Shown in pieces: positions 14,277-60,472 of a stretch of DNA of 64,000 bases (within the stretch, counting starts at the first letter, position 1; every line of letters begins with the position of its first letter). Under the pieces are notes generated by a model. It saw nothing but the letters and a program-made list of their open reading frames with translations. It was not told the DNA's origin and made no database searches. The DNA is from a virus. Taxonomy: Duplodnaviria > Caudoviricetes. Both the position numbers and the translations under genes were made by a program. The DNA lies in IMG/VR virus record IMGVR_UViG_3300042445_001485; one strand, given 5' to 3'.

Positions 14277-14720
14277 TTACTCAAACTGAGTTCTCGATTT
14301 GCGTTCTGCCATTACTGCGGTGCTGACAGTATCGTCGATATCAGGCTCGTCGTCGCTGACAAAAATAATACACTTAGGATCTGCTTTACGCAGGGTAAAT
14401 TCTTCACCATCGATTTCGACTTCCATGCCGCGGCTCCATCGACCGTGTTCGATAAACACCCATTGATCAACTCGAATATCAGTTTGATCTGGACCAACTG
14501 CATAAACTCGAGCCCATCGTGGACGAATACCTTCTGTTTTACCATCGTCATTTAATAGGTAAATTCCACTACTAAGTTGGCGACCACCGAAGTTCATGTC
14601 GCGTACAATCACATGATCATGCAGGGCTCGAATACCAGCAACTTGATTGGTTTGTTTGAATTTATTACTTGCTTGAAATAACGGTTCTTCTATTGGCATA
14701 TTAGATTCTCGCTGGTCCAA
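14277..14720 (-). CDS. GroES-like co-chaperonin
   Basis: IRALHDHVIV, SSGIYL mobile loop, ARVYAVGP. Confidence 0.75.
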   Translation of the reverse strand: MDQRESNMPIEEPLFQASNKFKQTNQVAGIRALHDHVIVRDMNFGGRQLSSGIYLLNDDGKTEGIRPRWARVYAVGPDQTDIRVDQWVFIEHGRWSRGMEVEIDGEEFTLRKADPKCIIFVSDDEPDIDDTVSTAVMAERKSRTQFE

Positions 14721-15156
14721 CGGGTTTTCGTGGATCCTTAATTAGTTCTTGTTTGTGTACAGTGGCTGAGGCAATTGATGCGGCCAAACTACCCCGCATT
14801 TGTGGAACAGGATCGGCTGGGTTTACTACAGTTTCAATTACCTGATCGTTGTTTTCTTCGGATTGTGGCTCGGGTTGTGGCTCGGGCATAGGTGCTCCCT
14901 GTGACATTCTTGCTCCAGATTTAATTTGTTGTTGCATAATTTCGGCGGTGTTTATTTCAATTGGCACAGGAGTACTTAATTTATTATATGAATCCTGTGT
15001 TTGATTTCTTGTTTCTTTGATTCGCCCGCCGGCGCCAAGTTTATCTCCGCGGGCATTAACCTTCATATTGCCCACAGCAATAGTTTCTTCGTTGGCCACC
15101 CGTAAACTTTCAATATCAATTTGTTTGCCTTGTGCCGTTGTGTAAACTCTACTCAT
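14701..15156 (-). CDS. hypothetical protein
   Basis: 151-aa ORF with GGAG SD. Confidence 0.65.
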   Translation of the reverse strand: MSRVYTTAQGKQIDIESLRVANEETIAVGNMKVNARGDKLGAGGRIKETRNQTQDSYNKLSTPVPIEINTAEIMQQQIKSGARMSQGAPMPEPQPEPQSEENNDQVIETVVNPADPVPQMRGSLAASIASATVHKQELIKDPRKPVGPARI

Positions 15157-15177
15157 ACATTGTTCTCCTGTGTATAC

Positions 15178-15702
15178 TTATCTTAAAAATTCCTCGATGT
15201 CTAAATCATAATACATGCTGTCTATTTTGTGTACACCAATCAAGTATAACACATAACTGGACACACTACTACCTCTTCCTAGACCCCATACCACAGTATT
15301 TTTTCTCATGGTATCTACAAAATATTTTAAGTATCTTAATAAATTAAATAAATCACGCTCTTGATATAGCATCAACTCTTTGCCAACTCGTTGTAATTTT
15401 GGATCATTATCACATTGGTCCAGTACCCATTGTGCAATATCCAGTTGTTTATATTCTTCGGGCATGTACCAATTTTGTTGTTGCACATGGTCAAACAACT
15501 CCAAAGGCACTTGTTCTTTGTAATCCATGGGAAGGTATCGTTGTACTATGGGAAAGTCACTGTAAGTGACTTCTCTTGCTTGATTATACTGCCCTGGATC
15601 CTCAACTTGAAATCTACTGATGTCCAAGTTGGGATTTTCGTACAGCAACTCAAATAATTCCTCAGTATCTGTATAGGCCTGACCAAATTGATTGTACTTC
15701 AT
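15178..15702 (-). CDS. DNA polymerase III alpha (DnaE)-like fragment
   Basis: RVGKEL..., WGLGRGSSVSSYVLYLIGVHKID matches DnaE GPGRGSAAGSLVAYxLGITxIDP; ends before the catalytic PDID motif. Confidence 0.75.
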   Translation of the reverse strand: MKYNQFGQAYTDTEELFELLYENPNLDISRFQVEDPGQYNQAREVTYSDFPIVQRYLPMDYKEQVPLELFDHVQQQNWYMPEEYKQLDIAQWVLDQCDNDPKLQRVGKELMLYQERDLFNLLRYLKYFVDTMRKNTVVWGLGRGSSVSSYVLYLIGVHKIDSMYYDLDIEEFLR

Positions 15703-15947
15703 GAGATATCAATGATGCCTTTGAATCCTTTGCCGTTCTTGTCTGCCCGTGCTTCCATTTCTTTCATCAACTTGTCCTGTCTACGACCAAGTTCATTTTG
15801 ATAGTCTTGCATGAGCATTTGGATCTGCGGAATTATTTGGCTTGGTCCAGATCGATAGGCTTGCCCCAATCGTCTGTTGAGATCATTGAATTTTTTTGCA
15901 AGCTCATCGTCGGATACTGTTGATAAATCTGGGGCAAGTGGGTGCAT
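15699..15947 (-). CDS. hypothetical protein
   Basis: Helical ORF; start adjusted to MHPLAPD. Confidence 0.6.
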   Translation of the reverse strand: MHPLAPDLSTVSDDELAKKFNDLNRRLGQAYRSGPSQIIPQIQMLMQDYQNELGRRQDKLMKEMEARADKNGKGFKGIIDIS

Positions 15948-16019
15948 AGAAAAACTCCTGGTAACATTATTATATAGCAATGTTGGCCAGGAGTCAAATG
16001 GTTTATACCAATTTGGCCG

Positions 16020-17126
16020 TTAACTTAGAGTGATGTTTGCCCATTTGGTGCCGTTATACACCTGTACATTACCTGTGGTATAATTGTACACCGTCATACC
16101 GCTATTGGTTGGAGCGATGGCATCGATTTGTGTTGTGGTCAAATTGGCAAACTGTATTGCACTGCTTACTGTTAAAAATCCCGTGATGTTGGTATTACCA
16201 CTGGCATTGCCTACGTTGATAGTAGTGGCAGCACCAAATGCATTGACTGTGGTAGCAGTGGCATTGAACAATAATACATTAGAGGATGTAGTAACAATGT
16301 TGCCACCATTGGCATTAACATTACCAGTGACTGTAATGCCGGTTGCGGCAAGCACAGTAGTGGTAATTAATCCACCAGCAGGAGTGCTGATGTTGCCTGC
16401 GGTAATATTTCCGGTGACATTCAAATTCTGTGATACTGTGCTATTGTTGCTAACTAGTAAATTACCTAATGTCACATTACCAATGGTTACTGTAGTAAAT
16501 GCACCTGTTCCCGGTGTAACATTACCAATTGCTGTTGCTTGTAGGCCACCTGTGGTGGCTGTTGTGAATACTGCTGTGCCAGGTGTAACATTACCAATTG
16601 CAACTACTTGTAACCCTGCAACATTAGAAATATTACCACTGACACGGATATTACCATTGGCTGTGATCCAACCGCTACCGTCTGGGTCTAGGCTCAGATT
16701 GCCATTGGTCCCTGCCAGGGTAGTTATGTTGTTTGCCACAATATTACCACTGGTTGTGATATTACCAGCAACAATTTCTTGTTGATTTATAGTTATTGTG
16801 CCTGTCTCGTATATGTTACCAGTGACAATCAAGTTACCTGCAATGGTTACATTGGCTGATGCAGTTACATCTCCCAGTAAACTAGAAGTTTGATTTACAG
16901 TAAGATTTCGATCAACATTGGCATAGAATGGGGATACATTGCCACTGGTTGAAATAACAAGTCTAATATTGTTTACTGAGTTTTGTACATCAGTTATTTC
17001 GCTTGACGCAAAACTGAAGTTGTTTAAAATATTGGTAAAATTATCTCGAAAGCCTTGACTGTCGTTGTCTTGGCCAGCAACTGGAAAGTTACCATTAATA
17101 TTATTTGGGTTTATGTTTGATGACAT
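16020..17126 (-). CDS. virion fibre/baseplate-associated protein
   Basis: N-terminal FPVAGQDNDSQGFRDNF attachment-type motif; repeated G-N-I-T-A beta motifs. Confidence 0.7.
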   Translation of the reverse strand: MSSNINPNNINGNFPVAGQDNDSQGFRDNFTNILNNFSFASSEITDVQNSVNNIRLVISTSGNVSPFYANVDRNLTVNQTSSLLGDVTASANVTIAGNLIVTGNIYETGTITINQQEIVAGNITTSGNIVANNITTLAGTNGNLSLDPDGSGWITANGNIRVSGNISNVAGLQVVAIGNVTPGTAVFTTATTGGLQATAIGNVTPGTGAFTTVTIGNVTLGNLLVSNNSTVSQNLNVTGNITAGNISTPAGGLITTTVLAATGITVTGNVNANGGNIVTTSSNVLLFNATATTVNAFGAATTINVGNASGNTNITGFLTVSSAIQFANLTTTQIDAIAPTNSGMTVYNYTTGNVQVYNGTKWANITLS

Positions 17127-20100
17127 TAGTTAAATACTCCGATCTTGGGGAACTTAATATATTTATCTCCGGAAACGGGTAACACTTCATACTTTTCCCA
17201 GTATCCAGTCTGGAATGTCCTAGAGGGTAATACAGGTGTAATTGCTTTGTAGTAATTCCCTTGATACAGTACTTTACTATTAATATCGTATGCTACAGCC
17301 TCTACCCATGCAGTTGGTGCAGATATAATAGTTTCAGCAGGACTGTCCCGTAGATCAAAGAACTTAGTTCCATCGCCGTCAAATCTGGTTCTATTCCCAC
17401 TATTCCCATTAAAGGTGATAGTACTAGGAATTCTTCTATACATAGGCACTGTAGCGTCTATGTTGGTAAACGGAATAGTTGGATCATAGGTGTATGAATC
17501 ATAATCTGGGTCTGTTGTGTCTCCCCAGTCTTTGTAAAGCAAGAAACTTTGTCCATAGCTTCTACCGTCTAATACTTTGACCCGTGATCGCAATGGCACA
17601 GATTGTACAAATCCCAATCTAACATTTTCTGTGTCCGGATCTATTTGTATTTCCCATATTCCTGCTCTTTGATTTTGCACATAGTAACCTAAATAATCCC
17701 CAACTCTGATACTGACAGTGAATGAGGAATGACTTTCTAATGTGATGACATTGTTTACTATTCTTGCAATTCTAACCCCGTTGGGTATGCCATATCCAGC
17801 AACAACATTTTCAATTAGTTTTAATCTATCAGCAATAACTACAGGTAAAGTGTCTGCATCAACAGTGATGGTGTTGTTGGTATAATCAACTGCGGTCACA
17901 GTCAGATATGAAGTCAACTTGACAATATTATTAATTGATCCTGTACCTATTGTGGGTTTGCTAAGTGTCAACTGCAACGATAACCCAGAACCAACACCAC
18001 TGGCCACAGACTGACCTACCACTGTGGTATTATAGTCAATAAAACTATTAGGAACTATGGTTTTACCAATGTAATTGACTGCGGAGTACAGAATATAAAT
18101 GTTGGTTGTACCCACAGAAACAGGTGCCAACAATGTGGGTTCTTTGGCATCAATTAGGTATTCAGAGTACCCCGATACTACATACGAACTGTCATATCCG
18201 GTACTGTCGTAATAAGAAATATCAACAGTATCATTGATGTCTGAATAGTTACCAAGATACAAGTCAGTGTAGTATATCCAGCCATCGTCGGGATAACTTG
18301 TATTAAATCCTTCTTGTTGAGCAAAAATCAATCTATCGCCAGTTTTAAATCCGTTCACATTATCTATGCCGCCGTTGTCAAGTATGTGCTGTACTGATTT
18401 ATTATTAATGCTGGCAAATGGCTGTGTGACAGCATAGTTAACTGTGTATACTGGTTTACTAAATTTTATAGCGCCAGCTGGAGTTTGTCCCCAGGCCAGG
18501 CTTGATATAGTGATGGTTGTGTCACTGTCAACAGACACAATGGTTTGTCCGTCGGTAAATCCATTGCCTGTTATTACCATGCCTGTTGATAACCCAACCG
18601 TACTGGTTAAAGTTAAACTGTAGCCGGTTACTCCGCCTGATACATAACTGTAGTAGTAAACATCATTCTGTGATAGGTAATCAAATGTTGTTTCTCTGCT
18701 GGGCAAAAATGCCTGATTAGTAATGTCGTAATAATTGGATAATGTATTGTCTACTAGGTAACGATCAACAGTGTAGTTGATACCTGCCAATTCAATACCT
18801 CGGTCCTGCATACGATATGCAATTTTTTTACTCTCCCCGGATTTGGTGTATGCCAGCACCAAAGCTCTTTTAAACCCTAACACACTTTTATCTTCTTGTA
18901 CACTGGTCATCCAGTCTGGGATAACACCCTGTGCGCTATAACCTAAATTTTGACTGATTCGAGTTTCCATGTTGTCAAATGTGTTTGGGTTGATAATATA
19001 GTGACCCGTTCCCTGTGGATCATAATATGGATTTGCAACATGATTGATGCCACCTGACAGATTAGTTTCTAGTGTGACATCTAAATTTTCTGGATTAAAC
19101 GGATCAACCACTTCGACATAAACCACTTCATACTTGACTGCATAGTCATTGTCTGGGTCTGTGGCAATGGCCGTCTTAACTGGACCGAAGTTAATAACTT
19201 TATTGTAATGATTTTTTTGTATTGCTGAAATGTATGAACTTAAGGTACTAGGATCAACACCGGGCAATTCTAAGAAACGATATGATGATGCTTTGCCAAA
19301 ATTTGGATCATCGTGGCGGTATATAGAATCAATTGGGAATAAACTAGGATCAGCCAATATACTTGTCAACAATCGTCTTTGTTCAATTGGCGGCAGAGCC
19401 TGCATGTAAAGATTTTCATATGGTTTAGCATAAAGATTGTTGATTCTTAATTTGAATGTTTTTGTATCTGCTACAGAATTATCCACCGCAGTGGCTTTGA
19501 CTGTAAATGTGTATATGTTATCAAACTTTGTTTTGTTACCGTCGATTGTGGTTGCATCTGCATCAAGTTGAAAATGTCTAAATGTTGTACGACCTGTAAT
19601 TCTTCCACTTGATAATAACTGTAAACCTTGGGGCAGACTGACTGTGGTAGCAGTCAAGTATTCTGATCCTGTGGCAGCTGATCCATCGTTGAGCGTACCA
19701 TGCACAAGTTGATAAGTTACTTCTTTGCCCAGTGAGTTATATGCAACTATGCTCAACTCGCTGACACCACCATTGATGATATTTCCTGCTACAGTAGGAG
19801 TGTCCCATACAATCTGATTGTTGACATCACCCAGTACAGTCAATGAATAGACCATTGGTTCACTGACTAGATTACCACTGAAAGTTAAATTACCAGCTGG
19901 TGTACTGTTAGCACTTGATGTAATAGATACTGTGTTATTTTCTGTGTATACCCTATACACCTGTTGCCCAGTACCAAATCCATTGCCACTTATTTCCATA
20001 CCAGGGCGAATACCAGCAGTATTGCTCACAATGACATTGGTATTGGGAGATACACCTCCGGCTACATAATTGGCAGTAATTAAATTAAATTGTGGTACTG

Positions 20101-21205
20101 TATTGGCAGCTGTCACATAGAATGTGTAGACTTTCCTGTAATCTATTTGTGTGTCTATATGTCCAGACAACCAGCCAGTGGAGGTGTTGATTGATAAATT
20201 TGGTAACAAACTGGTTATATTACTAGCCCAAGTCAATGATGTTCCGTAAAAATCAACAGCTGAAAACCTAAAACTAAAATTGCTATTTTGTCTTACCACA
20301 GGCAATGAACTAACAGTTGTGGTTACTATGGGTGAATACACCTGATCTGCATCAACAGTGATAAAATTATCGTCAACTGTGTTTATATCATTGTCAGTGG
20401 ACCACGATCCTTTGGCAATAACTTTAATTGTATAAGTTTGCGTATCGTAATTGGCGCCATCAAATACTTGAACGGTAAATGTATAATTTTTATTTAAACT
20501 AGTAGCAGTGGTAAAGTCATAGGGGAATTCTTCGTACTGCTGTGTATAACCAAATGGTTCTGTTGTTACCAAGGAATATGGATTACCATTGCCGGCAAAT
20601 GTCTGACTGCTCGGTACACTGGTATTGGCAGTGGGAGTAAATGCAGTTTGAACCTGTGTTGGTTGTGCATTATAACCTAGTCTACCACTGGTATCTTCAT
20701 CTAGTACTCTTCCAATAAATCCTCTTAGATAACCATCTTCAGTCAATGTCAGGCCTGGTGGTAACGATTCTGCGTCTGACTTGAGACTCCATACCAAATT
20801 GCCTTCACGATTAGTTTCTAGTGCTTGAAATTTATGTTCGATGGGAGTACCATCAAAGTATTCGCCAATTAGCATTGTTTCGGGAGTGATCTGCGGTGGT
20901 ACAATGTTACTGACAGTAAAATTAAATGTACGGTCAACTACCACAACCGGGGTTTGACAACTGGCACGAATTGTAAATTTGTAAGTTCTAGTTTCGTCCT
21001 TGGGCCCAGGATCTGTTACAACCGGTACACCTTGTAGCAGACCAGATCTAACAACTTGTAAACCAGGTGGTAATGTGCCACTTAAAAAAATAAATGTCAC
21101 AGGCGATCCGGTAGGATTGTTGACCTCAAGCGGCAGGCTGTAGAATTCAGCCTCGGGAAACGTTCCTAAGTTGCCTCCGGGAGTAATCCATACCGGTCTT
21201 GACAT
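17126..21205 (-). CDS. large virion structural protein with Ig/cadherin-like domains (1359 aa)
   Basis: SGTLPPGL, LPPGLTLTEDG-x-L-x-G, YTFTV-x-A repeats. Confidence 0.75.
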   Translation of the reverse strand: MSRPVWITPGGNLGTFPEAEFYSLPLEVNNPTGSPVTFIFLSGTLPPGLQVVRSGLLQGVPVVTDPGPKDETRTYKFTIRASCQTPVVVVDRTFNFTVSNIVPPQITPETMLIGEYFDGTPIEHKFQALETNREGNLVWSLKSDAESLPPGLTLTEDGYLRGFIGRVLDEDTSGRLGYNAQPTQVQTAFTPTANTSVPSSQTFAGNGNPYSLVTTEPFGYTQQYEEFPYDFTTATSLNKNYTFTVQVFDGANYDTQTYTIKVIAKGSWSTDNDINTVDDNFITVDADQVYSPIVTTTVSSLPVVRQNSNFSFRFSAVDFYGTSLTWASNITSLLPNLSINTSTGWLSGHIDTQIDYRKVYTFYVTAANTVPQFNLITANYVAGGVSPNTNVIVSNTAGIRPGMEISGNGFGTGQQVYRVYTENNTVSITSSANSTPAGNLTFSGNLVSEPMVYSLTVLGDVNNQIVWDTPTVAGNIINGGVSELSIVAYNSLGKEVTYQLVHGTLNDGSAATGSEYLTATTVSLPQGLQLLSSGRITGRTTFRHFQLDADATTIDGNKTKFDNIYTFTVKATAVDNSVADTKTFKLRINNLYAKPYENLYMQALPPIEQRRLLTSILADPSLFPIDSIYRHDDPNFGKASSYRFLELPGVDPSTLSSYISAIQKNHYNKVINFGPVKTAIATDPDNDYAVKYEVVYVEVVDPFNPENLDVTLETNLSGGINHVANPYYDPQGTGHYIINPNTFDNMETRISQNLGYSAQGVIPDWMTSVQEDKSVLGFKRALVLAYTKSGESKKIAYRMQDRGIELAGINYTVDRYLVDNTLSNYYDITNQAFLPSRETTFDYLSQNDVYYYSYVSGGVTGYSLTLTSTVGLSTGMVITGNGFTDGQTIVSVDSDTTITISSLAWGQTPAGAIKFSKPVYTVNYAVTQPFASINNKSVQHILDNGGIDNVNGFKTGDRLIFAQQEGFNTSYPDDGWIYYTDLYLGNYSDINDTVDISYYDSTGYDSSYVVSGYSEYLIDAKEPTLLAPVSVGTTNIYILYSAVNYIGKTIVPNSFIDYNTTVVGQSVASGVGSGLSLQLTLSKPTIGTGSINNIVKLTSYLTVTAVDYTNNTITVDADTLPVVIADRLKLIENVVAGYGIPNGVRIARIVNNVITLESHSSFTVSIRVGDYLGYYVQNQRAGIWEIQIDPDTENVRLGFVQSVPLRSRVKVLDGRSYGQSFLLYKDWGDTTDPDYDSYTYDPTIPFTNIDATVPMYRRIPSTITFNGNSGNRTRFDGDGTKFFDLRDSPAETIISAPTAWVEAVAYDINSKVLYQGNYYKAITPVLPSRTFQTGYWEKYEVLPVSGDKYIKFPKIGVFN

Positions 21206-54429: not shown

Positions 54430-55611
54430 TTATAGGAATGTGTCTGCCAATTGCTGACACTTGTCCCTTATATCCTTGTTGTTGGTCACGGTGACTGAAA
54501 AGTCTTGCTCGCTGTGGTCATGTTGTGTGGGATCTGCATATCCAGCATACACTTTGTGTACATTGGTGTTGTTGATCAAATCGGTACAACTGCCGCCTGC
54601 TCGCTCATCGGCCATGTCAGTTTCATATTCGTTGCAAGGACTCAGGGTTGTAATGATAATCGAACCCTTGGGTATTTCACCGTACTGCTTGTTATATTTG
54701 TTGATAGCAACTCGTTCAGCATGTATTCGTGTGTCACCGTCACCGGGTAAGTTTATACCTGTGACAATGTTATCATCTGGATCCACCACAGCGGCCGCAA
54801 CCTTGCCATAACGGTCTGGGTCTTTGGCCTGGCCATCTACGATCATCTGTATCAACTGGGTCAGTATGCGATCCAATTTGGGGGTGTTGTGTACACGATA
54901 ATCGTCAACGCTTTCCATGCTGAACTCGCGGTCTTGTGTGGTGTGGTATGCTTTACCAAGTCGATCTAAATAGCCCAAATTGCGTACAACTTTAAATGCC
55001 AGGTTCTCTACACTGAACTCACCACCCGCATCCAGGCCTGCTCGGCGCATCTTACGCAGTTTATCTGTGATGCGCTTGATGTCACGACTGTCATCTGCCG
55101 TTGCCAGGGCATGTCGTATTTGTACCAATAAGTCTTGTACCTTGTGATTTACAGCACCTGTGCTGATCTTGGGCTGTAGGTACTTGGGTGTGTGTACCCA
55201 ACGATTGTTTGTGATGCTGTATACGCCTTGACTCACAGGTGGTTGTTTGACATCTTCTACATATAACTCTACATCATGTCCACGAATACGAATATTGTGT
55301 GCATCATTCCAAATCTTTTTCTTGGCTTGGTAAAGTGCTTCTGCCAAGTCATCACATTGCAAGTTGTTGTAGTCAGTGACCACATGCAGATCAAAGTCAC
55401 TAAACCGGGTCCAGTTGTAGTTGCTCATTGATCCAGTCAACACAATGTCTATGACTTCAAAGTCGGGTATTTCAAGATAGTCAACAAAGGTGCCAACAAT
55501 GGCCAGCAGTCGCTCTCTAACTTCGGGACGCATTTGATCGCCGGTCCAAGTGGCTGGATTCAGCCGGTTGTGATATGCAATATTGCCTGCGACGAAGTCT
55601 TGTGCTCTCAT
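54430..55611 (-). CDS. Pol-beta-type nucleotidyltransferase fused to a Zn deaminase
   Basis: N: LTGS...SDFDLH, VELYVED; C: IHAERVAI, TLSPC...C, KVYAGYADP. Confidence 0.75.
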   Translation of the reverse strand: MRAQDFVAGNIAYHNRLNPATWTGDQMRPEVRERLLAIVGTFVDYLEIPDFEVIDIVLTGSMSNYNWTRFSDFDLHVVTDYNNLQCDDLAEALYQAKKKIWNDAHNIRIRGHDVELYVEDVKQPPVSQGVYSITNNRWVHTPKYLQPKISTGAVNHKVQDLLVQIRHALATADDSRDIKRITDKLRKMRRAGLDAGGEFSVENLAFKVVRNLGYLDRLGKAYHTTQDREFSMESVDDYRVHNTPKLDRILTQLIQMIVDGQAKDPDRYGKVAAAVVDPDDNIVTGINLPGDGDTRIHAERVAINKYNKQYGEIPKGSIIITTLSPCNEYETDMADERAGGSCTDLINNTNVHKVYAGYADPTQHDHSEQDFSVTVTNNKDIRDKCQQLADTFL

Positions 55612-55618
55612 TGTATAT

Positions 55619-56314
55619 TTACGCTAGATGCGTCATTAGCGCATCCATTTGTTCTATACCACCTCGGGACAACTGAAAGCCTTGTTGCCGGGCTTTGTCC
55701 ATGCGTTGATCGTATGTGGGGTGTGTGCTGTTGGGTTGGCTGGCTAATTTTTTCATATATTCCAACTCGCCTTTCTTGGCATGCATGAATTTAAACACAC
55801 CAGCTTTGTTGTAGCCCAGGGCTTTACATAACCTAACAGCAAAATCATCAGCATCCATTTCATCTTTACGGGATTGTTCTGGACTTGGCTCATCATCTAC
55901 ATGTCCTAGCGCAATGTGTCCTAGTTCATGTGCTATGGCAAAAGTCAATACATCTGCTGGAGCGTCCCAGAATACAGTTAAGTCTATGCTGATGTATCGG
56001 TTCTCAGGATCACTTTGTATGTATTGTCTATTAGACTTTACACCGATGGTAGCTCCCTGCAACGGTGCGGCCCATGAGGCACCTGCAGTTCTAATCAACT
56101 TGGCAAGTACAGCGTTACATTTTTCCTGTAAGGCCTGCATTCGTGGAGCCCAAATCTTAACCAAAGCCTGTGGGTCTTGTTTGGTTATGTCTTGGTATTC
56201 ACCGGCTTGTGCCGTGGAAGCCATTGACCCCAGGGCGGCTGCTCCTGCCGCACCGGCAAGGCCCTTGAGTATATCACGGCGACCTATTTCTGTGATAAAC
56301 TCACGAGCTCTCAT
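55619..56314 (-). CDS. M48-family zinc metallopeptidase
   Basis: AIAHELGHIALGH and SRKDEMDAD; N-terminal RRDILK plus hydrophobic helix. Confidence 0.8.
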   Translation of the reverse strand: MRAREFITEIGRRDILKGLAGAAGAAALGSMASTAQAGEYQDITKQDPQALVKIWAPRMQALQEKCNAVLAKLIRTAGASWAAPLQGATIGVKSNRQYIQSDPENRYISIDLTVFWDAPADVLTFAIAHELGHIALGHVDDEPSPEQSRKDEMDADDFAVRLCKALGYNKAGVFKFMHAKKGELEYMKKLASQPNSTHPTYDQRMDKARQQGFQLSRGGIEQMDALMTHLA

Positions 56315-57135
56315 TAGTCAGCGTTCTTCCCGCACTTGGCTCTTTTGGCATTTGTTAATGCACCAAAGTCAACTTTCCACTCTGCACCAGGTTGAACTTC
56401 TATCACACCTGCGGGGAACTTGTAGTCTACACCGGCTACTTTTTCTATCTCTGCAATGGACCGACGGAATACTGTCAAGTCGTTGCCCAGGTTAACATAG
56501 GGTTTGGTGTGCGGGAATACCCAACCTGCGGCCTGCTTGGTTGTGTTGTTGATCACAATCTTGTAGTATCCATGTGGAACAACAACACCGTTGCCGATAG
56601 TGGGATCACCGGCACCGTACAATGCACCCACATAAATTGTAAAGGGTTGATTCAGTTGTACAGTCCATCCACGAACTGCTGTTTCCAACAGTTTCCAAAT
56701 GCCACGATTCAAACTACCGTGTTGTGGATACATGTTGGTCATTAAGAAACTTTCGTATTCTACTTGTTGACTCCATGAAAGGTCACCGTCAGGTGCGGCA
56801 TGGCCTTTGTCGTAGCCTGTGCCAGCATAGTCGTCTGGGCGAGCACCTGTACCATTTAAACTGGCATCAGCAACAAACGCATTTGTGCGGGGAAAGCAAC
56901 CAAGTGCGTTCTGTGGTAGCAGGGTGTAGGCCACATAAGCAGGAATCTTTACCGGAGCATCATATGCCACAAGATATGCTTCACGGCAAATGGCCTGCAC
57001 TGGTCGTTTGACTACAGCAAATCCATAAGGGCTATGGACTGCACAGGCTTGTACAGGATTAGGAGGCCGTTGGTCCCAGGCTTGTGCAGAAAATACACCC
57101 GTTGCTAGGGCAATTGATAACAAAAACTTCTTCAT
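56314..57135 (-). CDS. secreted DNA/RNA non-specific endonuclease (NucA type)
   Basis: Signal peptide; YDKGH-x-AP, NMYPQ-x3-LNRGIW. Confidence 0.92.
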   Translation of the reverse strand: MKKFLLSIALATGVFSAQAWDQRPPNPVQACAVHSPYGFAVVKRPVQAICREAYLVAYDAPVKIPAYVAYTLLPQNALGCFPRTNAFVADASLNGTGARPDDYAGTGYDKGHAAPDGDLSWSQQVEYESFLMTNMYPQHGSLNRGIWKLLETAVRGWTVQLNQPFTIYVGALYGAGDPTIGNGVVVPHGYYKIVINNTTKQAAGWVFPHTKPYVNLGNDLTVFRRSIAEIEKVAGVDYKFPAGVIEVQPGAEWKVDFGALTNAKRAKCGKNAD

Positions 57136-57159: not shown

Positions 57160-57774
57160 TTAACTATTTATGGCAGGATCTATGAAGCTTTGAGTGTAGT
57201 CGTAATTGACCATTGTGCTGTAGCTCTGTGTGCGTCGGCGCTCACTGTTGTCAGCATTGGGAATAACACGCAATATTTTTGCACCATTGCGTATATGGAA
57301 CTTGGCCACTGGATCTTTTTGTGCAGATAAAAACTCCATGATGGCATTCATCGTGGGTGGCTCGGCAAAATGTGCGCTCAAATTTGGAATAGGGCTCATT
57401 GTGACAAACTGTTGAATTTCAGGCCGGTTGGCATGAATCCAAGTGGCAGCTTCGCGAATTAGTCGAGCACCAGTGTTTTGTACACCGCTGGGTTTATCAG
57501 TTCTAAACACGCTGTAAAAGACGGCATGGTCTGCTTGAAGGCACACAGCACTAGCAACATCTAGTATCTCATCAATATTGTCGGTTAGACCTTGGATGTA
57601 GGCCACACACAACACCGCTGTGGGTACATTGTTCTCTATCCAGAAAAATATATTACGGTCGAATTCGCATCTTCGGTCAAGGCTACGACTCTCAGTTAAA
57701 CTGTGAACTGGGTCCTGATGAACATATTGTAAGTAATCTGGATGGAACTCTGCTGACCGTAAGTGAACAAGCAT
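57160..57774 (-). CDS. malonyl-CoA decarboxylase catalytic-domain-like protein
   Basis: AVFYS, G-x2-LI, F-x-TMSPIP, DPVAKFHIRNGA, AD-x-S, QS...MVNY-x-Y. Confidence 0.8.
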   Translation of the reverse strand: MLVHLRSAEFHPDYLQYVHQDPVHSLTESRSLDRRCEFDRNIFFWIENNVPTAVLCVAYIQGLTDNIDEILDVASAVCLQADHAVFYSVFRTDKPSGVQNTGARLIREAATWIHANRPEIQQFVTMSPIPNLSAHFAEPPTMNAIMEFLSAQKDPVAKFHIRNGAKILRVIPNADNSERRRTQSYSTMVNYDYTQSFIDPAINS

Positions 57775-57846
57775 ATTGAAAGCCCTCGTGCTATTATATG
57801 CGTATTTATTCTAGAATGAATAAATGATATAAATTAGTCTATAAAT

Positions 57847-57930
57847 TTAAGATTGTTTGGCCGGCGTTGGCAAACGACCGTAGTTGACCCATTCCCAATC
57901 ATCGTCGGTCATTGGTAACCAATTGCACAT
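57847..57930 (-). CDS. micro-protein (27 aa)
   Basis: MCNWLPMTDDDWEWVNYGRLPTPAKQS*, 2 nt after the upstream stop. Confidence 0.45.
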   Translation of the reverse strand: MCNWLPMTDDDWEWVNYGRLPTPAKQS

Positions 57931-57932
57931 GA

Positions 57933-58022
57933 TCAATACCATCCGTAACGAACAGCCTTTTCAGCTCGCACACGACCATAGGCTTCAAAGAAAGCCCAAA
58001 CCTTTGTTAGAATTTTTTTCAT
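57933..58022 (-). CDS. micro-protein (29 aa)
   Basis: MKKILTKVWAFFEAYGRVRAEKAVRYGWY*, ATGA coupling. Confidence 0.5.
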   Translation of the reverse strand: MKKILTKVWAFFEAYGRVRAEKAVRYGWY

Positions 58023-58171
58023 ATTGCCCACTTTTTTTGTTGTTCTTGGTTATAGAAATTGATCCAATACTCAACTTCGGCAGTTGATTTTGGTTGCTTG
58101 CTAACTACATAATATTCCACGCTGTCTTGGTAAGTTGGCGTTGTGAATAGACTTTTGATCCATTTTAACAT
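58019..58171 (-). CDS. small protein (50 aa)
   Basis: AAGGAG SD before MLKWIKS; TAAATA upstream. Confidence 0.6.
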   Translation of the reverse strand: MLKWIKSLFTTPTYQDSVEYYVVSKQPKSTAEVEYWINFYNQEQQKKWAI

Positions 58172-59662: not shown

Positions 59663-60472
59663 TTATCTGAATGTAATTTGTCCAACTACAGCATTGGGTT
59701 TTGCCAATGCTTCTGCCCGCTTTTGCTTATATTCTGTGTTATCCACATCTAAGAGCTTGATTTCTGTACCGGATGTGGTACTAACCTTTTCTGCGGGTTT
59801 TGCGGCTTCGGGAACCACAACAGGCTCAACTTTAGATTGGGGTTGTACTATGGTTTCTCCACGATCCAGGCTTTCACGATCAAGCTCGGCCTTGCGATTG
59901 CGCTCAACTTGCTCTTTCAATTCCTGTTCTGCGCGACGGGCATTTACAGCCTGGTTTCGTTGTGCTCGAGATGCAAGTTCTGCAGTCAACAACTGATTGG
60001 CATCTCCTAGGGGGTAACGCATCAACACAAACACACGGAAGGTCGACCCTTCTTGTGTGATCTGACTGTCTACTTTGTGGTGCCCAATAATGGTTGCACT
60101 AGCAACTTTACGAGTCAACATCTCAGCACTCTCAGCACCATACTTGCCTCCGGTGTCTGTCTTGAAGCTCTTGATCATGGCTTCGACTTGACTCTTCATT
60201 TGGAATGCCAACTTGGCGTCGGCATCCAGCGTGGCTTTCTGCACAGTCATGCCCAAGAATGGACCTGTTGCTTCGCCCACAACAAAGATATGTTGTGCTG
60301 TGTTCTCAGGTGGTTGTATAAACCAGTCCGGAACTTTCAGTGTGGGCACCACTGTGCCTTGTGCTTTCAGCACCGTGGTAGGTAAGGTTTGTTCAACCTT
60401 GGTCTGTGGATTTGCCGCACAGCCTGCAAACAGCAAACTCAAAACACTCAATGCAATTAAACTACGATTCAT
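59663..60472 (-). CDS. lipoprotein (LPP20-like)
   Basis: Lipobox FAGC; PDWF, A-x3-A-x-AKLA pattern. Confidence 0.7.
   Translation of the reverse strand: MNRSLIALSVLSLLFAGCAANPQTKVEQTLPTTVLKAQGTVVPTLKVPDWFIQPPENTAQHIFVVGEATGPFLGMTVQKATLDADAKLAFQMKSQVEAMIKSFKTDTGGKYGAESAEMLTRKVASATIIGHHKVDSQITQEGSTFRVFVLMRYPLGDANQLLTAELASRAQRNQAVNARRAEQELKEQVERNRKAELDRESLDRGETIVQPQSKVEPVVVPEAAKPAEKVSTTSGTEIKLLDVDNTEYKQKRAEALAKPNAVVGQITFR

What the first reader, a model, noticed from the sequence alone, without database searches (positions are those of the whole stretch)
57160..57774. Stand-alone minimal malonyl-CoA decarboxylase-like domain
This 204-aa protein keeps the MCD C-terminal motifs (FYS, SPIP, DPVAxFHxxNGA, QSxxxMVNYxY), including the catalytic Ser and His positions. 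It lacks the helical N-terminal domain of cellular MCDs (about 450 aa). Inference: it could drain malonyl-CoA from host fatty-acid synthesis to acetyl-CoA, or the GNAT-like fold has been repurposed as an acyltransferase.
Basis: partly seen in the sequence, partly recalled or inferred. Interest (0 to 1): 0.6.

Follow-up and report, generated by a model that had tools for sequence, protein, structure and literature searches.

The report
Minimal malonyl-CoA decarboxylase of jumbo phages
A giant lake-water phage encodes a stripped-down, 204-residue version of malonyl-CoA decarboxylase with the full active site but none of the accessory parts, so it probably destroys the host's building block for fatty-acid synthesis during infection; the activity is untested.

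Summary
The ORF at 57160-57774 (-) matches Pfam MCD (PF05292, E 4.4e-28). Its model (pLDDT 94.8) superposes on solved MCD catalytic domains at Z 18.6-22.3 over 192-201 of 204 residues.

- **Missing parts:** the N-terminal helical domain, the beta5-beta6 helical insert and the C-terminal tail.
- **Kept parts:** every published active-site residue: Phe86, Ser127, His160, Asp175 and Tyr193. All are invariant in both the short and the canonical forms. The catalytic Ser is the one in SPIP, not the one in FYS.
- **Family:** there are 118 near-length relatives in metagenomes. 24 of 26 short representatives form one clade (SH-aLRT 93). Every informative context is a jumbo-phage contig of up to 355 kb. 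No match was found in sequenced phage records. Apart from one phage-like 3.3-kb contig binned into a Polynucleobacter MAG, none was found in the cellular genomes searched.
- **Partners:** no neighbouring gene is constant, so the enzyme needs no phage-encoded partner.

My best reading is a cofactor-free malonyl-thioester decarboxylase acting on a host metabolite. An acyltransferase role is disfavoured. The idea that it shuts off host lipid synthesis is inference, weakly supported by fatty-acid desaturase genes in four of six records of MCD-carrying phages searched. It is a new variant of a known kind. The scan also noted a similar compact gene in another genome.

The parts
57160..57774 (-). Gene for the 204-aa minimal MCD-like (GNAT-like) decarboxylase. 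Active-site residues are Phe86, Ser127, His160, Asp175 and Tyr193. A basic residue, Lys158, sits at the position that binds the CoA 3'-phosphate in CurA.
57775..57846 (-). AT-rich upstream stretch with a TATAAT hexamer and a GAGGG ribosome-binding site 8 nt before the ATG. It may be the gene's own promoter. This is a consensus match only.
56314..57135 (-). Downstream gene 24 nt after the MCD stop codon: a non-specific DNA/RNA endonuclease (Endonuclease_NS) with an N-terminal signal peptide. It lies within 4 genes of the MCD gene in 7 of 12 window-like loci but is not a constant partner.

Best explanation
The gene encodes a virus-specific, minimal malonyl-CoA decarboxylase: the GNAT-like catalytic core of MCD without the oligomerisation domain, the beta5-beta6 insert or the C-terminal tail. 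By analogy with human and bacterial MCD, the pantetheine arm of malonyl-CoA would lie along strand beta4 (residues 83-91). Ser127 and His160, with His160 held by Tyr193, would polarise the thioester carbonyl. Phe86 would provide the non-polar pocket for the leaving CO2, and the enolate would be protonated to give acetyl-CoA. No cofactor and no phage partner would be needed. In the infected cell this would convert the committed precursor of fatty-acid synthesis back to acetyl-CoA. That would slow new membrane-lipid synthesis and return carbon, and save ATP and NADPH, for phage production. Shown here: homology, fold, an intact and invariant active site, restriction to viruses, and the lack of a constant neighbouring gene. 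Inferred: activity, the preference for CoA over ACP, and the physiological effect.
For: Pfam MCD matches at E 4.4e-28. A profile of the family hits only MCDs in the PDB, at E 1.6e-26 to 8e-20. The model has pLDDT 94.8. It aligns to MCDs at Z 18.6-22.3, to the GNAT-like decarboxylases SxtA, CurA and GphF at Z 17-18, and to ordinary GNATs at Z 13 or below. Residues named as catalytic or active-site in PMC3701320 map to Phe86, Ser127, His160, Asp175 and Tyr193. All are invariant in 26 short and 55-71 canonical representatives and in the 45-sequence family alignment. The position equivalent to the 3'-phosphate-binding Arg387 is Lys or Arg in 25 of 26 short forms. The paper reports that other subunits contribute little to the active site and that the N-terminal domain serves oligomerisation, so a lone catalytic domain is plausible. 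No gene neighbour is shared between the two synteny groups. The window's own record lacks the ACP, Acetyltransf_1-type GNAT, ClpP and amidoligase genes seen in relatives. This fits action on a host metabolite. For lipid context, FA_desaturase-family genes occur in four of six records of MCD-carrying phages searched. One of the four is the window's own record, another carries five in tandem, and one has a desaturase next to an ACP. A class-3 lipase lies near the gene in two relatives.
Against: No activity data exist for any short form. All characterised MCDs are dimers or tetramers built through the N-terminal domain, and a lone domain might be unstable or need another way to assemble. Short-clade-specific substitutions could shift specificity: Cys56 for the usual Glu on beta3 next to Phe86, Arg180 for the usual Gly, and Asp21-Pro22 for Glu-Ala. 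The neighbouring genes are mostly nucleases, proteases and nucleotide enzymes rather than lipid genes. The likely host lineage already has a canonical MCD, so the benefit to the phage is not obvious. The link to desaturases is loose: they lie 8 kb to more than 100 kb away and are missing from the one complete genome searched.
Confidence: 0.55

Rival explanations
1. It is a malonyl-ACP decarboxylase. It would act on malonyl bound to host or phage acyl carrier protein and make acetyl-ACP as a primer, as the GNAT-like loading domains of polyketide synthases do and as the unrelated MadA/MadB enzymes do. This would promote or re-route acyl-chain initiation rather than block it.
For: The protein has the size and bare architecture of the roughly 200-aa PKS GNAT-like decarboxylases and aligns to them at Z 17-18. 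ACP genes occur in 2 of 5 relatives' records, one of them next to a fatty-acid desaturase 8.7 kb from the MCD gene. MadA/MadB show that bacteria do use malonyl-ACP decarboxylation to start fatty-acid synthesis.
Against: By sequence it sits inside the MCD family, not among the PKS domains: Z 22 against 17, the Ser/His dyad rather than Thr/His, and Asp175 rather than CurA's Arg404. The basic residue at the CoA 3'-phosphate position is kept. No ACP gene lies in the window's 105-kb record, nor in the complete 355-kb relative.
Confidence: 0.15
2. It uses the same chemistry on a different alpha-carboxy-acyl thioester, such as methylmalonyl-CoA or a phage-specific malonylated intermediate, as part of a phage biosynthetic pathway.
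For: The short clade has its own substitutions near the pocket, Cys56 and Arg180. In several relatives the gene lies beside a GNAT, an NT5C-like enzyme and a large Amidoligase_2 protein.
Against: None of these neighbours is constant. All are absent from the window's record. The second synteny group has entirely different neighbours. Position 56 also varies among active canonical MCDs (Glu, Gln, His, Ile).
Confidence: 0.12
3. The GNAT fold has been repurposed as an acyl or acetyl transferase that modifies a host protein or small molecule.
For: The fold is GNAT-like, with Z 12-13 to many N-acetyltransferases. Without the beta5-beta6 insert, the face that GNATs use for acceptors and for dimerisation would be exposed.
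Against: No Pfam acetyltransferase family matches at E 0.1 or better. His160 replaces the GNAT general-acid Tyr, and the GNAT general-base Glu is not conserved in MCD or CurA. Asp175 occupies the site of CurA Arg404, which was linked to transfer activity. The full decarboxylase residue set is invariant.
Confidence: 0.06
4. It is a non-catalytic CoA or malonyl-CoA binding protein that acts as a sensor or a sequestering factor.
For: It is a small single domain with a retained CoA-binding loop, Gly102 and Leu105.
Against: Strict invariance of Ser127, His160, Tyr193 and Phe86 across proteins only 32-50% identical argues for catalysis.
Confidence: 0.03

Closest known systems
Malonyl-CoA decarboxylase (MCD, EC 4.1.1.9; Pfam PF05292; structures 4F0X, 2YGW, 4KSA, 4KSF, 4KS9)
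   Same: The catalytic domain fold matches at Z 18.6-22.3 with 192-201 of 204 residues aligned. The Ser/His dyad, the Phe pocket, the Tyr that holds the His, the MCD-type Asp and the SPIP, DPVAxFH and NYxY motifs are all kept.
   Different: It lacks the N-terminal helical oligomerisation domain (140-200 aa), the beta5-beta6 helical insert (45-70 aa) and the C-terminal tail (25-40 aa). It is only about 23-27% identical to solved MCDs and to the canonical MCD of the Polynucleobacter MAG. It was found only in jumbo-phage contexts.
GNAT-like decarboxylase domains of polyketide and saxitoxin synthases (CurA GNAT-L 2REE/2REF, GphF 6MFC, SxtA 7UCI)
   Same: It is a bare GNAT-like decarboxylase core of about 200 aa with no insert or helical domain. 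It has a His plus hydroxyl-residue dyad. The models align at Z 17-18 over 180-182 residues.
   Different: Identity is only 14-16%. It has Ser where CurA has Thr355 and Asp175 where CurA has Arg404. It is free-standing rather than embedded in a PKS module with an ACP.
MadA/MadB malonyl-ACP decarboxylases (Pfam PF09500, hot-dog fold)
   Same: A small, cofactor-free malonyl-thioester decarboxylase of Proteobacteria. This shows that such activity has physiological consequences for the initiation of fatty-acid synthesis.
   Different: The fold (hot dog) and the catalytic residue (Asn45) are unrelated. It is a functional analogue only.

Membership tests
Malonyl-CoA decarboxylase family (Pfam PF05292 MCD C-terminal domain) | Score above Pfam's gathering threshold for PF05292 | tested here: met
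   99 bits against a 23.2-bit cut-off, E 4.4e-28. Also found by the six-frame search of the record.
Malonyl-CoA decarboxylase family (Pfam PF05292 MCD C-terminal domain) | GNAT-like catalytic fold that superposes on solved MCDs | tested here: met
   Model pLDDT is 94.8. Z is 18.6-22.3, rmsd 2.6-3.1 A, with 192-201 of 204 residues aligned. Foldseek E is 1e-13.
Malonyl-CoA decarboxylase family (Pfam PF05292 MCD C-terminal domain) | Catalytic Ser/His dyad (human Ser329/His423; R. palustris Ser312/His389) | tested here: met
   These are Ser127 and His160, placed from the alignments with the numbering of PMC3701320. Both are invariant.
Malonyl-CoA decarboxylase family (Pfam PF05292 MCD C-terminal domain) | Supporting active-site residues: Phe288, Tyr456 and the MCD-type Asp (R. 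palustris Asp404) | tested here: met
   These are Phe86, Tyr193 and Asp175, all invariant in short and canonical forms.
Malonyl-CoA decarboxylase family (Pfam PF05292 MCD C-terminal domain) | N-terminal helical domain that mediates dimer or tetramer formation | tested here: not met
   The protein starts at the first strand of the catalytic domain, with an N-terminal extension of 0 residues against 140-200 in canonical forms.
Malonyl-CoA decarboxylase family (Pfam PF05292 MCD C-terminal domain) | Helical insert between beta5 and beta6 | tested here: not met
   Pfam model positions 153-210 are skipped. The insert is 0 residues against 45-70 in canonical forms. A 20-residue segment with one helix replaces it.
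Malonyl-CoA decarboxylase family (Pfam PF05292 MCD C-terminal domain) | Malonyl-CoA to acetyl-CoA plus CO2 activity | not testable with these tools
   This needs an enzyme assay.
PKS GNAT-like loading decarboxylases (CurA, GphF, SxtA type) | Thr/His dyad with the CurA Arg404 equivalent, inside a PKS module with an ACP | tested here: not met
   The protein has Ser127 rather than Thr and Asp175 rather than Arg. It is free-standing, and no ACP gene is in the 105-kb record. It aligns less well to these domains than to MCDs, Z 17-18 against 22.
Canonical GNAT N-acetyltransferases (Pfam Acetyltransf_1 and relatives) | Match to acetyltransferase profiles, and a general-acid Tyr at the position of His160 | tested here: not met
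   No Acetyltransf family matches at E 0.1 or better. His160 occupies the Tyr position. Z is 13 or below.

The most novel reading that the evidence does not exclude
Short MCD is a dedicated phage host-takeover enzyme, a new class of auxiliary metabolic gene. It would collapse the malonyl-CoA (or malonyl-ACP) pool early in infection to stop de novo lipid and envelope synthesis. In some lineages it would act alongside phage desaturases and ACP that remodel existing lipids. It would also be the first natural proof that the MCD catalytic core works without its oligomerisation domain and insert.
Probability: 0.3. Interest if true: 0.65.

Novelty: new variant of a known kind. Interest (0 to 1): 0.5.

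Why it matters
Malonyl-CoA is the committed and tightly limited precursor of bacterial fatty-acid synthesis. A phage enzyme that removes it would be a simple, previously undescribed way for viruses to switch off host membrane growth and recover carbon and energy. I found no paper in the searchable library that describes a phage-encoded MCD. For enzymology, the clade is a natural minimal MCD of about 200 aa against about 450. It would test whether the helical domain and the insert are dispensable for catalysis. It could also serve as a compact tool for lowering malonyl-CoA in engineered cells. The family is common in lake metagenomes, with 118 clusters at 90% identity, so any effect would be ecologically widespread.

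Tried and rejected
- **PHROGs and NCBIfam:** neither has a match for the protein.
- **Sequenced phage records (INPHARED):** tblastn of the protein and megablast of 14 kb around it found nothing.
- **An obligatory partner gene:** the large Amidoligase_2 protein, the GNAT, the NT5C-like enzyme and ClpP flank the gene in several relatives. All are missing from the window's 105-kb record and from the second synteny group. I rejected them as required partners.
- **ACP linkage:** there is no ACP gene in the window's record. ACP genes occur in only 2 of 5 relatives and lie 8.7 kb to more than 100 kb away.
- **CoaD link:** the cytidylyltransferase-like neighbour in group B scores best as a heptose-1-phosphate adenylyltransferase-type enzyme, not as CoaD. 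I dropped the idea of a link to CoA biosynthesis.
- **Donor lineage:** the sister of the short clade is a 401-aa canonical MCD on a 2.5-kb contig with no retrievable DNA.
- **Recent capture from the host:** the protein shares only about 23% identity over the gapped alignment with the canonical MCD of the Polynucleobacter MAG, so I rejected this.
- **3D distances:** model coordinates are not exposed to scripts, so I could not measure distances between active-site atoms.

Full report
**Observation.** Pfam's MCD C-terminal domain (PF05292) matches at E 4.4e-28, 99 bits against a 23.2-bit cut-off. The match comes in two pieces, model positions 24-152 and 211-252 of 253. The protein therefore holds the whole catalytic domain except a block of about 58 model positions. 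Sequence search of the PDB returns only malonyl-CoA decarboxylases: 4KS9, 4KSA, 4KSF, 2YGW and 4F0X. A profile of the family raises these hits to E 1.6e-26 to 8e-20. This is far beyond chance.

**Structure.** An AlphaFold model built on a 45-sequence family alignment has mean pLDDT 94.8 and pTM 0.90. Foldseek ranks the MCDs first (E about 1e-13), then the GNAT-like decarboxylases CurA, SxtA and GphF, then ordinary GNAT acetyltransferases. Re-alignment with VIA-align gives three clear tiers:
- MCDs: Z 18.6-22.3, with 192-201 of 204 residues aligned at 2.6-3.1 A.
- PKS-type GNAT-like decarboxylases: Z 17-18.
- Ordinary GNATs: Z 13 or below.

The protein is the GNAT-like core of MCD with nothing added.

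**What is missing.** I compared 146 representatives from an exhaustive HMMER search (823 hits at E <= 1e-3).

| Feature | Canonical MCDs | Short forms (185-224 aa) |
|---|---|---|
| N-terminal extension | 140-200 residues | none |
| Insert between the two conserved blocks | 45-70 residues | none |
| C-terminal tail | 25-40 residues | none |

According to the structure paper PMC3701320, the N-terminal domain mediates oligomerisation. The beta5-beta6 helical insert is poorly conserved and blocks the strand edge that ordinary GNATs use to dimerise. Other subunits contribute little to the active site. A lone catalytic domain is therefore mechanistically plausible.

**Active site.** The paper's numbering combined with the HMMER alignments gives this map:

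| Reference residue | Role | Residue here |
|---|---|---|
| Human Phe288 | CO2 pocket | Phe86 |
| Human Ser290 | FYS motif, not catalytic | Ser88 |
| Human Gly304 / Leu307 | CoA diphosphate loop | Gly102 / Leu105 |
| Human Ser329 (R. palustris Ser312) | catalytic | Ser127 |
| R. palustris and CurA Arg387 | binds the CoA 3'-phosphate | Lys158 |
| Human His423 | catalytic | His160 |
| R. palustris Asp404 (Arg404 in CurA) | MCD-type Asp | Asp175 |
| Human Tyr456 | holds the His | Tyr193 |

The offsets check out. Ser and His are 77 residues apart in the R. palustris alignment, as published. Here they are 33 apart, as in the insert-free CurA, where the gap is 34. The catalytic Ser is therefore the SPIP Ser, not the FYS Ser.

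Across 26 short, 6 small-insert and 55-71 canonical representatives, twelve positions never vary: Phe86, Thr125, Ser127, Pro128, Pro130, Phe159, His160, Asn163, Asp175 (Asn in four long forms), Ser184, Tyr191 and Tyr193. Position 158 is Lys or Arg in 25 of 26 short forms. The short clade has three substitutions of its own:
- Asp21-Pro22, where canonical forms have Glu-Ala.
- Cys56, usually Glu but also Gln, His or Ile in canonical forms.
- Arg180, usually Gly.

From the secondary structure, Cys56 lies on beta3 next to beta4, which carries Phe86. These changes could tune specificity or compensate for the lost domains. I could not measure distances because model coordinates are not exposed.

**Where the gene lives.** The window lies in a 105-kb IMG/VR virus record that CheckV rates 30% complete, which implies a genome of about 350 kb.
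- A word-indexed search found 118 near-length homologues (38-91% identical) in metagenomes. Some are on contigs of 105-226 kb. A few are labelled 'malonyl-CoA decarboxylase' by JGI.
- IMG/VR yielded 21 loci on contigs of up to 354,680 bp, one rated 100% complete. A 35%-identical member sits on a 341-kb contig.
- tblastn against 50,697 sequenced phage records found nothing.
- In one genome for each of 185,579 prokaryotic species, the family-specific patterns hit a single 3.3-kb contig in a Polynucleobacter MAG. That contig has the phage gene order MCD, Endonuclease_NS, nucleotidyltransferase-like gene, so it is most likely a binned phage fragment.
- The same MAG has a canonical 428-aa MCD, which shares only about 23% identity with the phage protein over the gapped alignment.
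- Of 201 sampled genomes from that MAG's phylum, 33 carry canonical MCD with open frames of 428 aa or more. None carries a short form apart from that contig.
- In a maximum-likelihood tree of the core columns, 24 of 26 short representatives form one clade (SH-aLRT 93). A 401-aa canonical protein is sister to it (SH-aLRT 95).

The short form is thus a single, old, virus-borne lineage, not a set of fragments or recent captures.

**Neighbourhood.** I clustered the ORFs of 20 loci and found two synteny groups.
- **Group A** (12 loci, including the window): the gene lies in a same-strand block of accessory genes. These are SprT-like, ClpP, a twitch radical-SAM protein, a GNAT, an NT5C-like enzyme, a 740-868 aa Amidoligase_2 protein, Endonuclease_NS, SNase, GH19 and a nucleotidyltransferase-like protein. 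The immediate neighbour varies: Endonuclease_NS, NT5C or ClpP in 4 of 12 loci each.
- **Group B** (8 loci, plus the 341-kb contig): the gene is the only plus-strand gene in a minus-strand block. That block holds a metallophosphatase, a dual-specificity phosphatase, a cytidylyltransferase-like protein, a cupin, DUF454 and a dCMP deaminase.

Only the MCD gene is common to both groups. The window's record also lacks the amidoligase, Acetyltransf_1, ClpP and ACP genes. The enzyme therefore has no obligatory phage partner, which fits action on a ubiquitous host metabolite.

There is a loose lipid theme. FA_desaturase-family genes occur in the window's own record (about 14 kb before the window) and in three of the five relatives' records searched. 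One relative carries five in tandem and another has a desaturase beside an ACP. The 260-kb record and the complete 355-kb group-B genome have none. A class-3 lipase lies five genes downstream of the MCD gene in two relatives.

**Local signals.** Three tiny overlapping ORFs (about 27-50 codons) precede the gene. They are followed by an AT-rich 70-nt stretch with a TATAAT hexamer and a GAGGG ribosome-binding site. The nuclease gene follows 24 nt after the stop codon. These are consensus matches only.

**Mechanism and rivals.** The best-supported reading is a cofactor-free decarboxylase of a malonyl thioester that uses the MCD Ser/His mechanism. Malonyl-CoA is the likeliest substrate because the protein belongs to the MCD family and keeps the basic 3'-phosphate residue.
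- **Malonyl-ACP** remains possible. The bare architecture resembles PKS loading domains, and some relatives encode ACP.
- **Another alpha-carboxy-acyl-CoA** is possible given the clade-specific pocket changes.
- **An acyltransferase role** is disfavoured. No acetyltransferase profile matches. His replaces the GNAT general-acid Tyr. Asp replaces CurA's Arg404.
- **A non-catalytic role** is unlikely given the strict invariance of the catalytic residues.

The physiological consequence is inference. It would be depletion of the fatty-acid precursor, return of acetyl-CoA, and savings in ATP and NADPH. MadA/MadB are an unrelated hot-dog-fold analogue showing that malonyl-thioester decarboxylation does affect the start of fatty-acid synthesis in Proteobacteria.

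**Novelty.** Full-text searches found no description of a phage-encoded MCD or of a minimal MCD. I class it as a new variant of a known kind. The enzyme family and chemistry are known. The stripped architecture and the restriction to viruses are new.

Earlier notes of this scan flagged the same stretch, and a similar 206-aa gene in another genome. Other notes describe this genome as a T4-related lake jumbo phage. I did not test that relationship.

Noticed in passing
window 55619-56314 (-): A 231-aa M48/M78-like metallopeptidase (HELGH motif) starts with a short leader, MRAREFITE, followed directly by a twin-arginine (Tat) signal (Pfam TAT_signal E 5.6e-5). The next gene, at 54430-55611, starts with a similar MRAQDF.
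   Followed up: no
window 54430-55611 (-): A 393-aa fusion of a nucleotidyltransferase-like domain (phrog_36119, NTP_transf_2) with a C-terminal cytidine/dCMP deaminase domain. In relatives the homologous gene is only about 232-235 aa and lacks the deaminase.
   Followed up: partly
window 56314-57135 (-): A non-specific endonuclease (Endonuclease_NS) with a Sec-type signal peptide lies immediately downstream of the MCD gene. An LPP20-like lipoprotein with a lipobox lies at 59663-60472. This region encodes several proteins that appear to be targeted to the cell envelope.
   Followed up: partly
G000:C1:5521-6060 (about 14 kb before the window's start): The phage record carries a fatty-acid desaturase family gene (PF00487, E 4e-10). 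Relative G003 has five tandem copies at 14361-18294. Relative G005 has a desaturase next to an ACP (L030:702-1731).
   Followed up: partly
L003:10638-13244, L005:10847-13414, L012:11942-14158: A very large (738-868 aa) protein with an Amidoligase_2 domain lies next to or near the MCD gene in 6 of 12 related loci, sometimes with a GGACT-like gene. It is absent from the window's record and its function is unknown.
   Followed up: partly
window 57847-58171 (-): Three tiny overlapping ORFs (about 50, 29 and 27 codons, with ATGA-type overlaps) fill the gap between the 284-aa unknown gene and the MCD gene. Relatives carry ClpP, GNAT and NT5C genes at this position.
   Followed up: no
window 17126-21205 (-): A 1359-aa ORF has no PHROG match. 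The adjacent 522-aa and 638-aa ORFs have tail-fibre-like C-terminal matches.
   Followed up: no
L028 (Polynucleobacter MAG contig CAYVBV010000165.1): A 3.3-kb contig binned into a Polynucleobacter MAG carries the phage gene order MCD, Endonuclease_NS, nucleotidyltransferase-like gene. This is a weak lead to the host, consistent with the window's roughly 43% GC content.
   Followed up: partly
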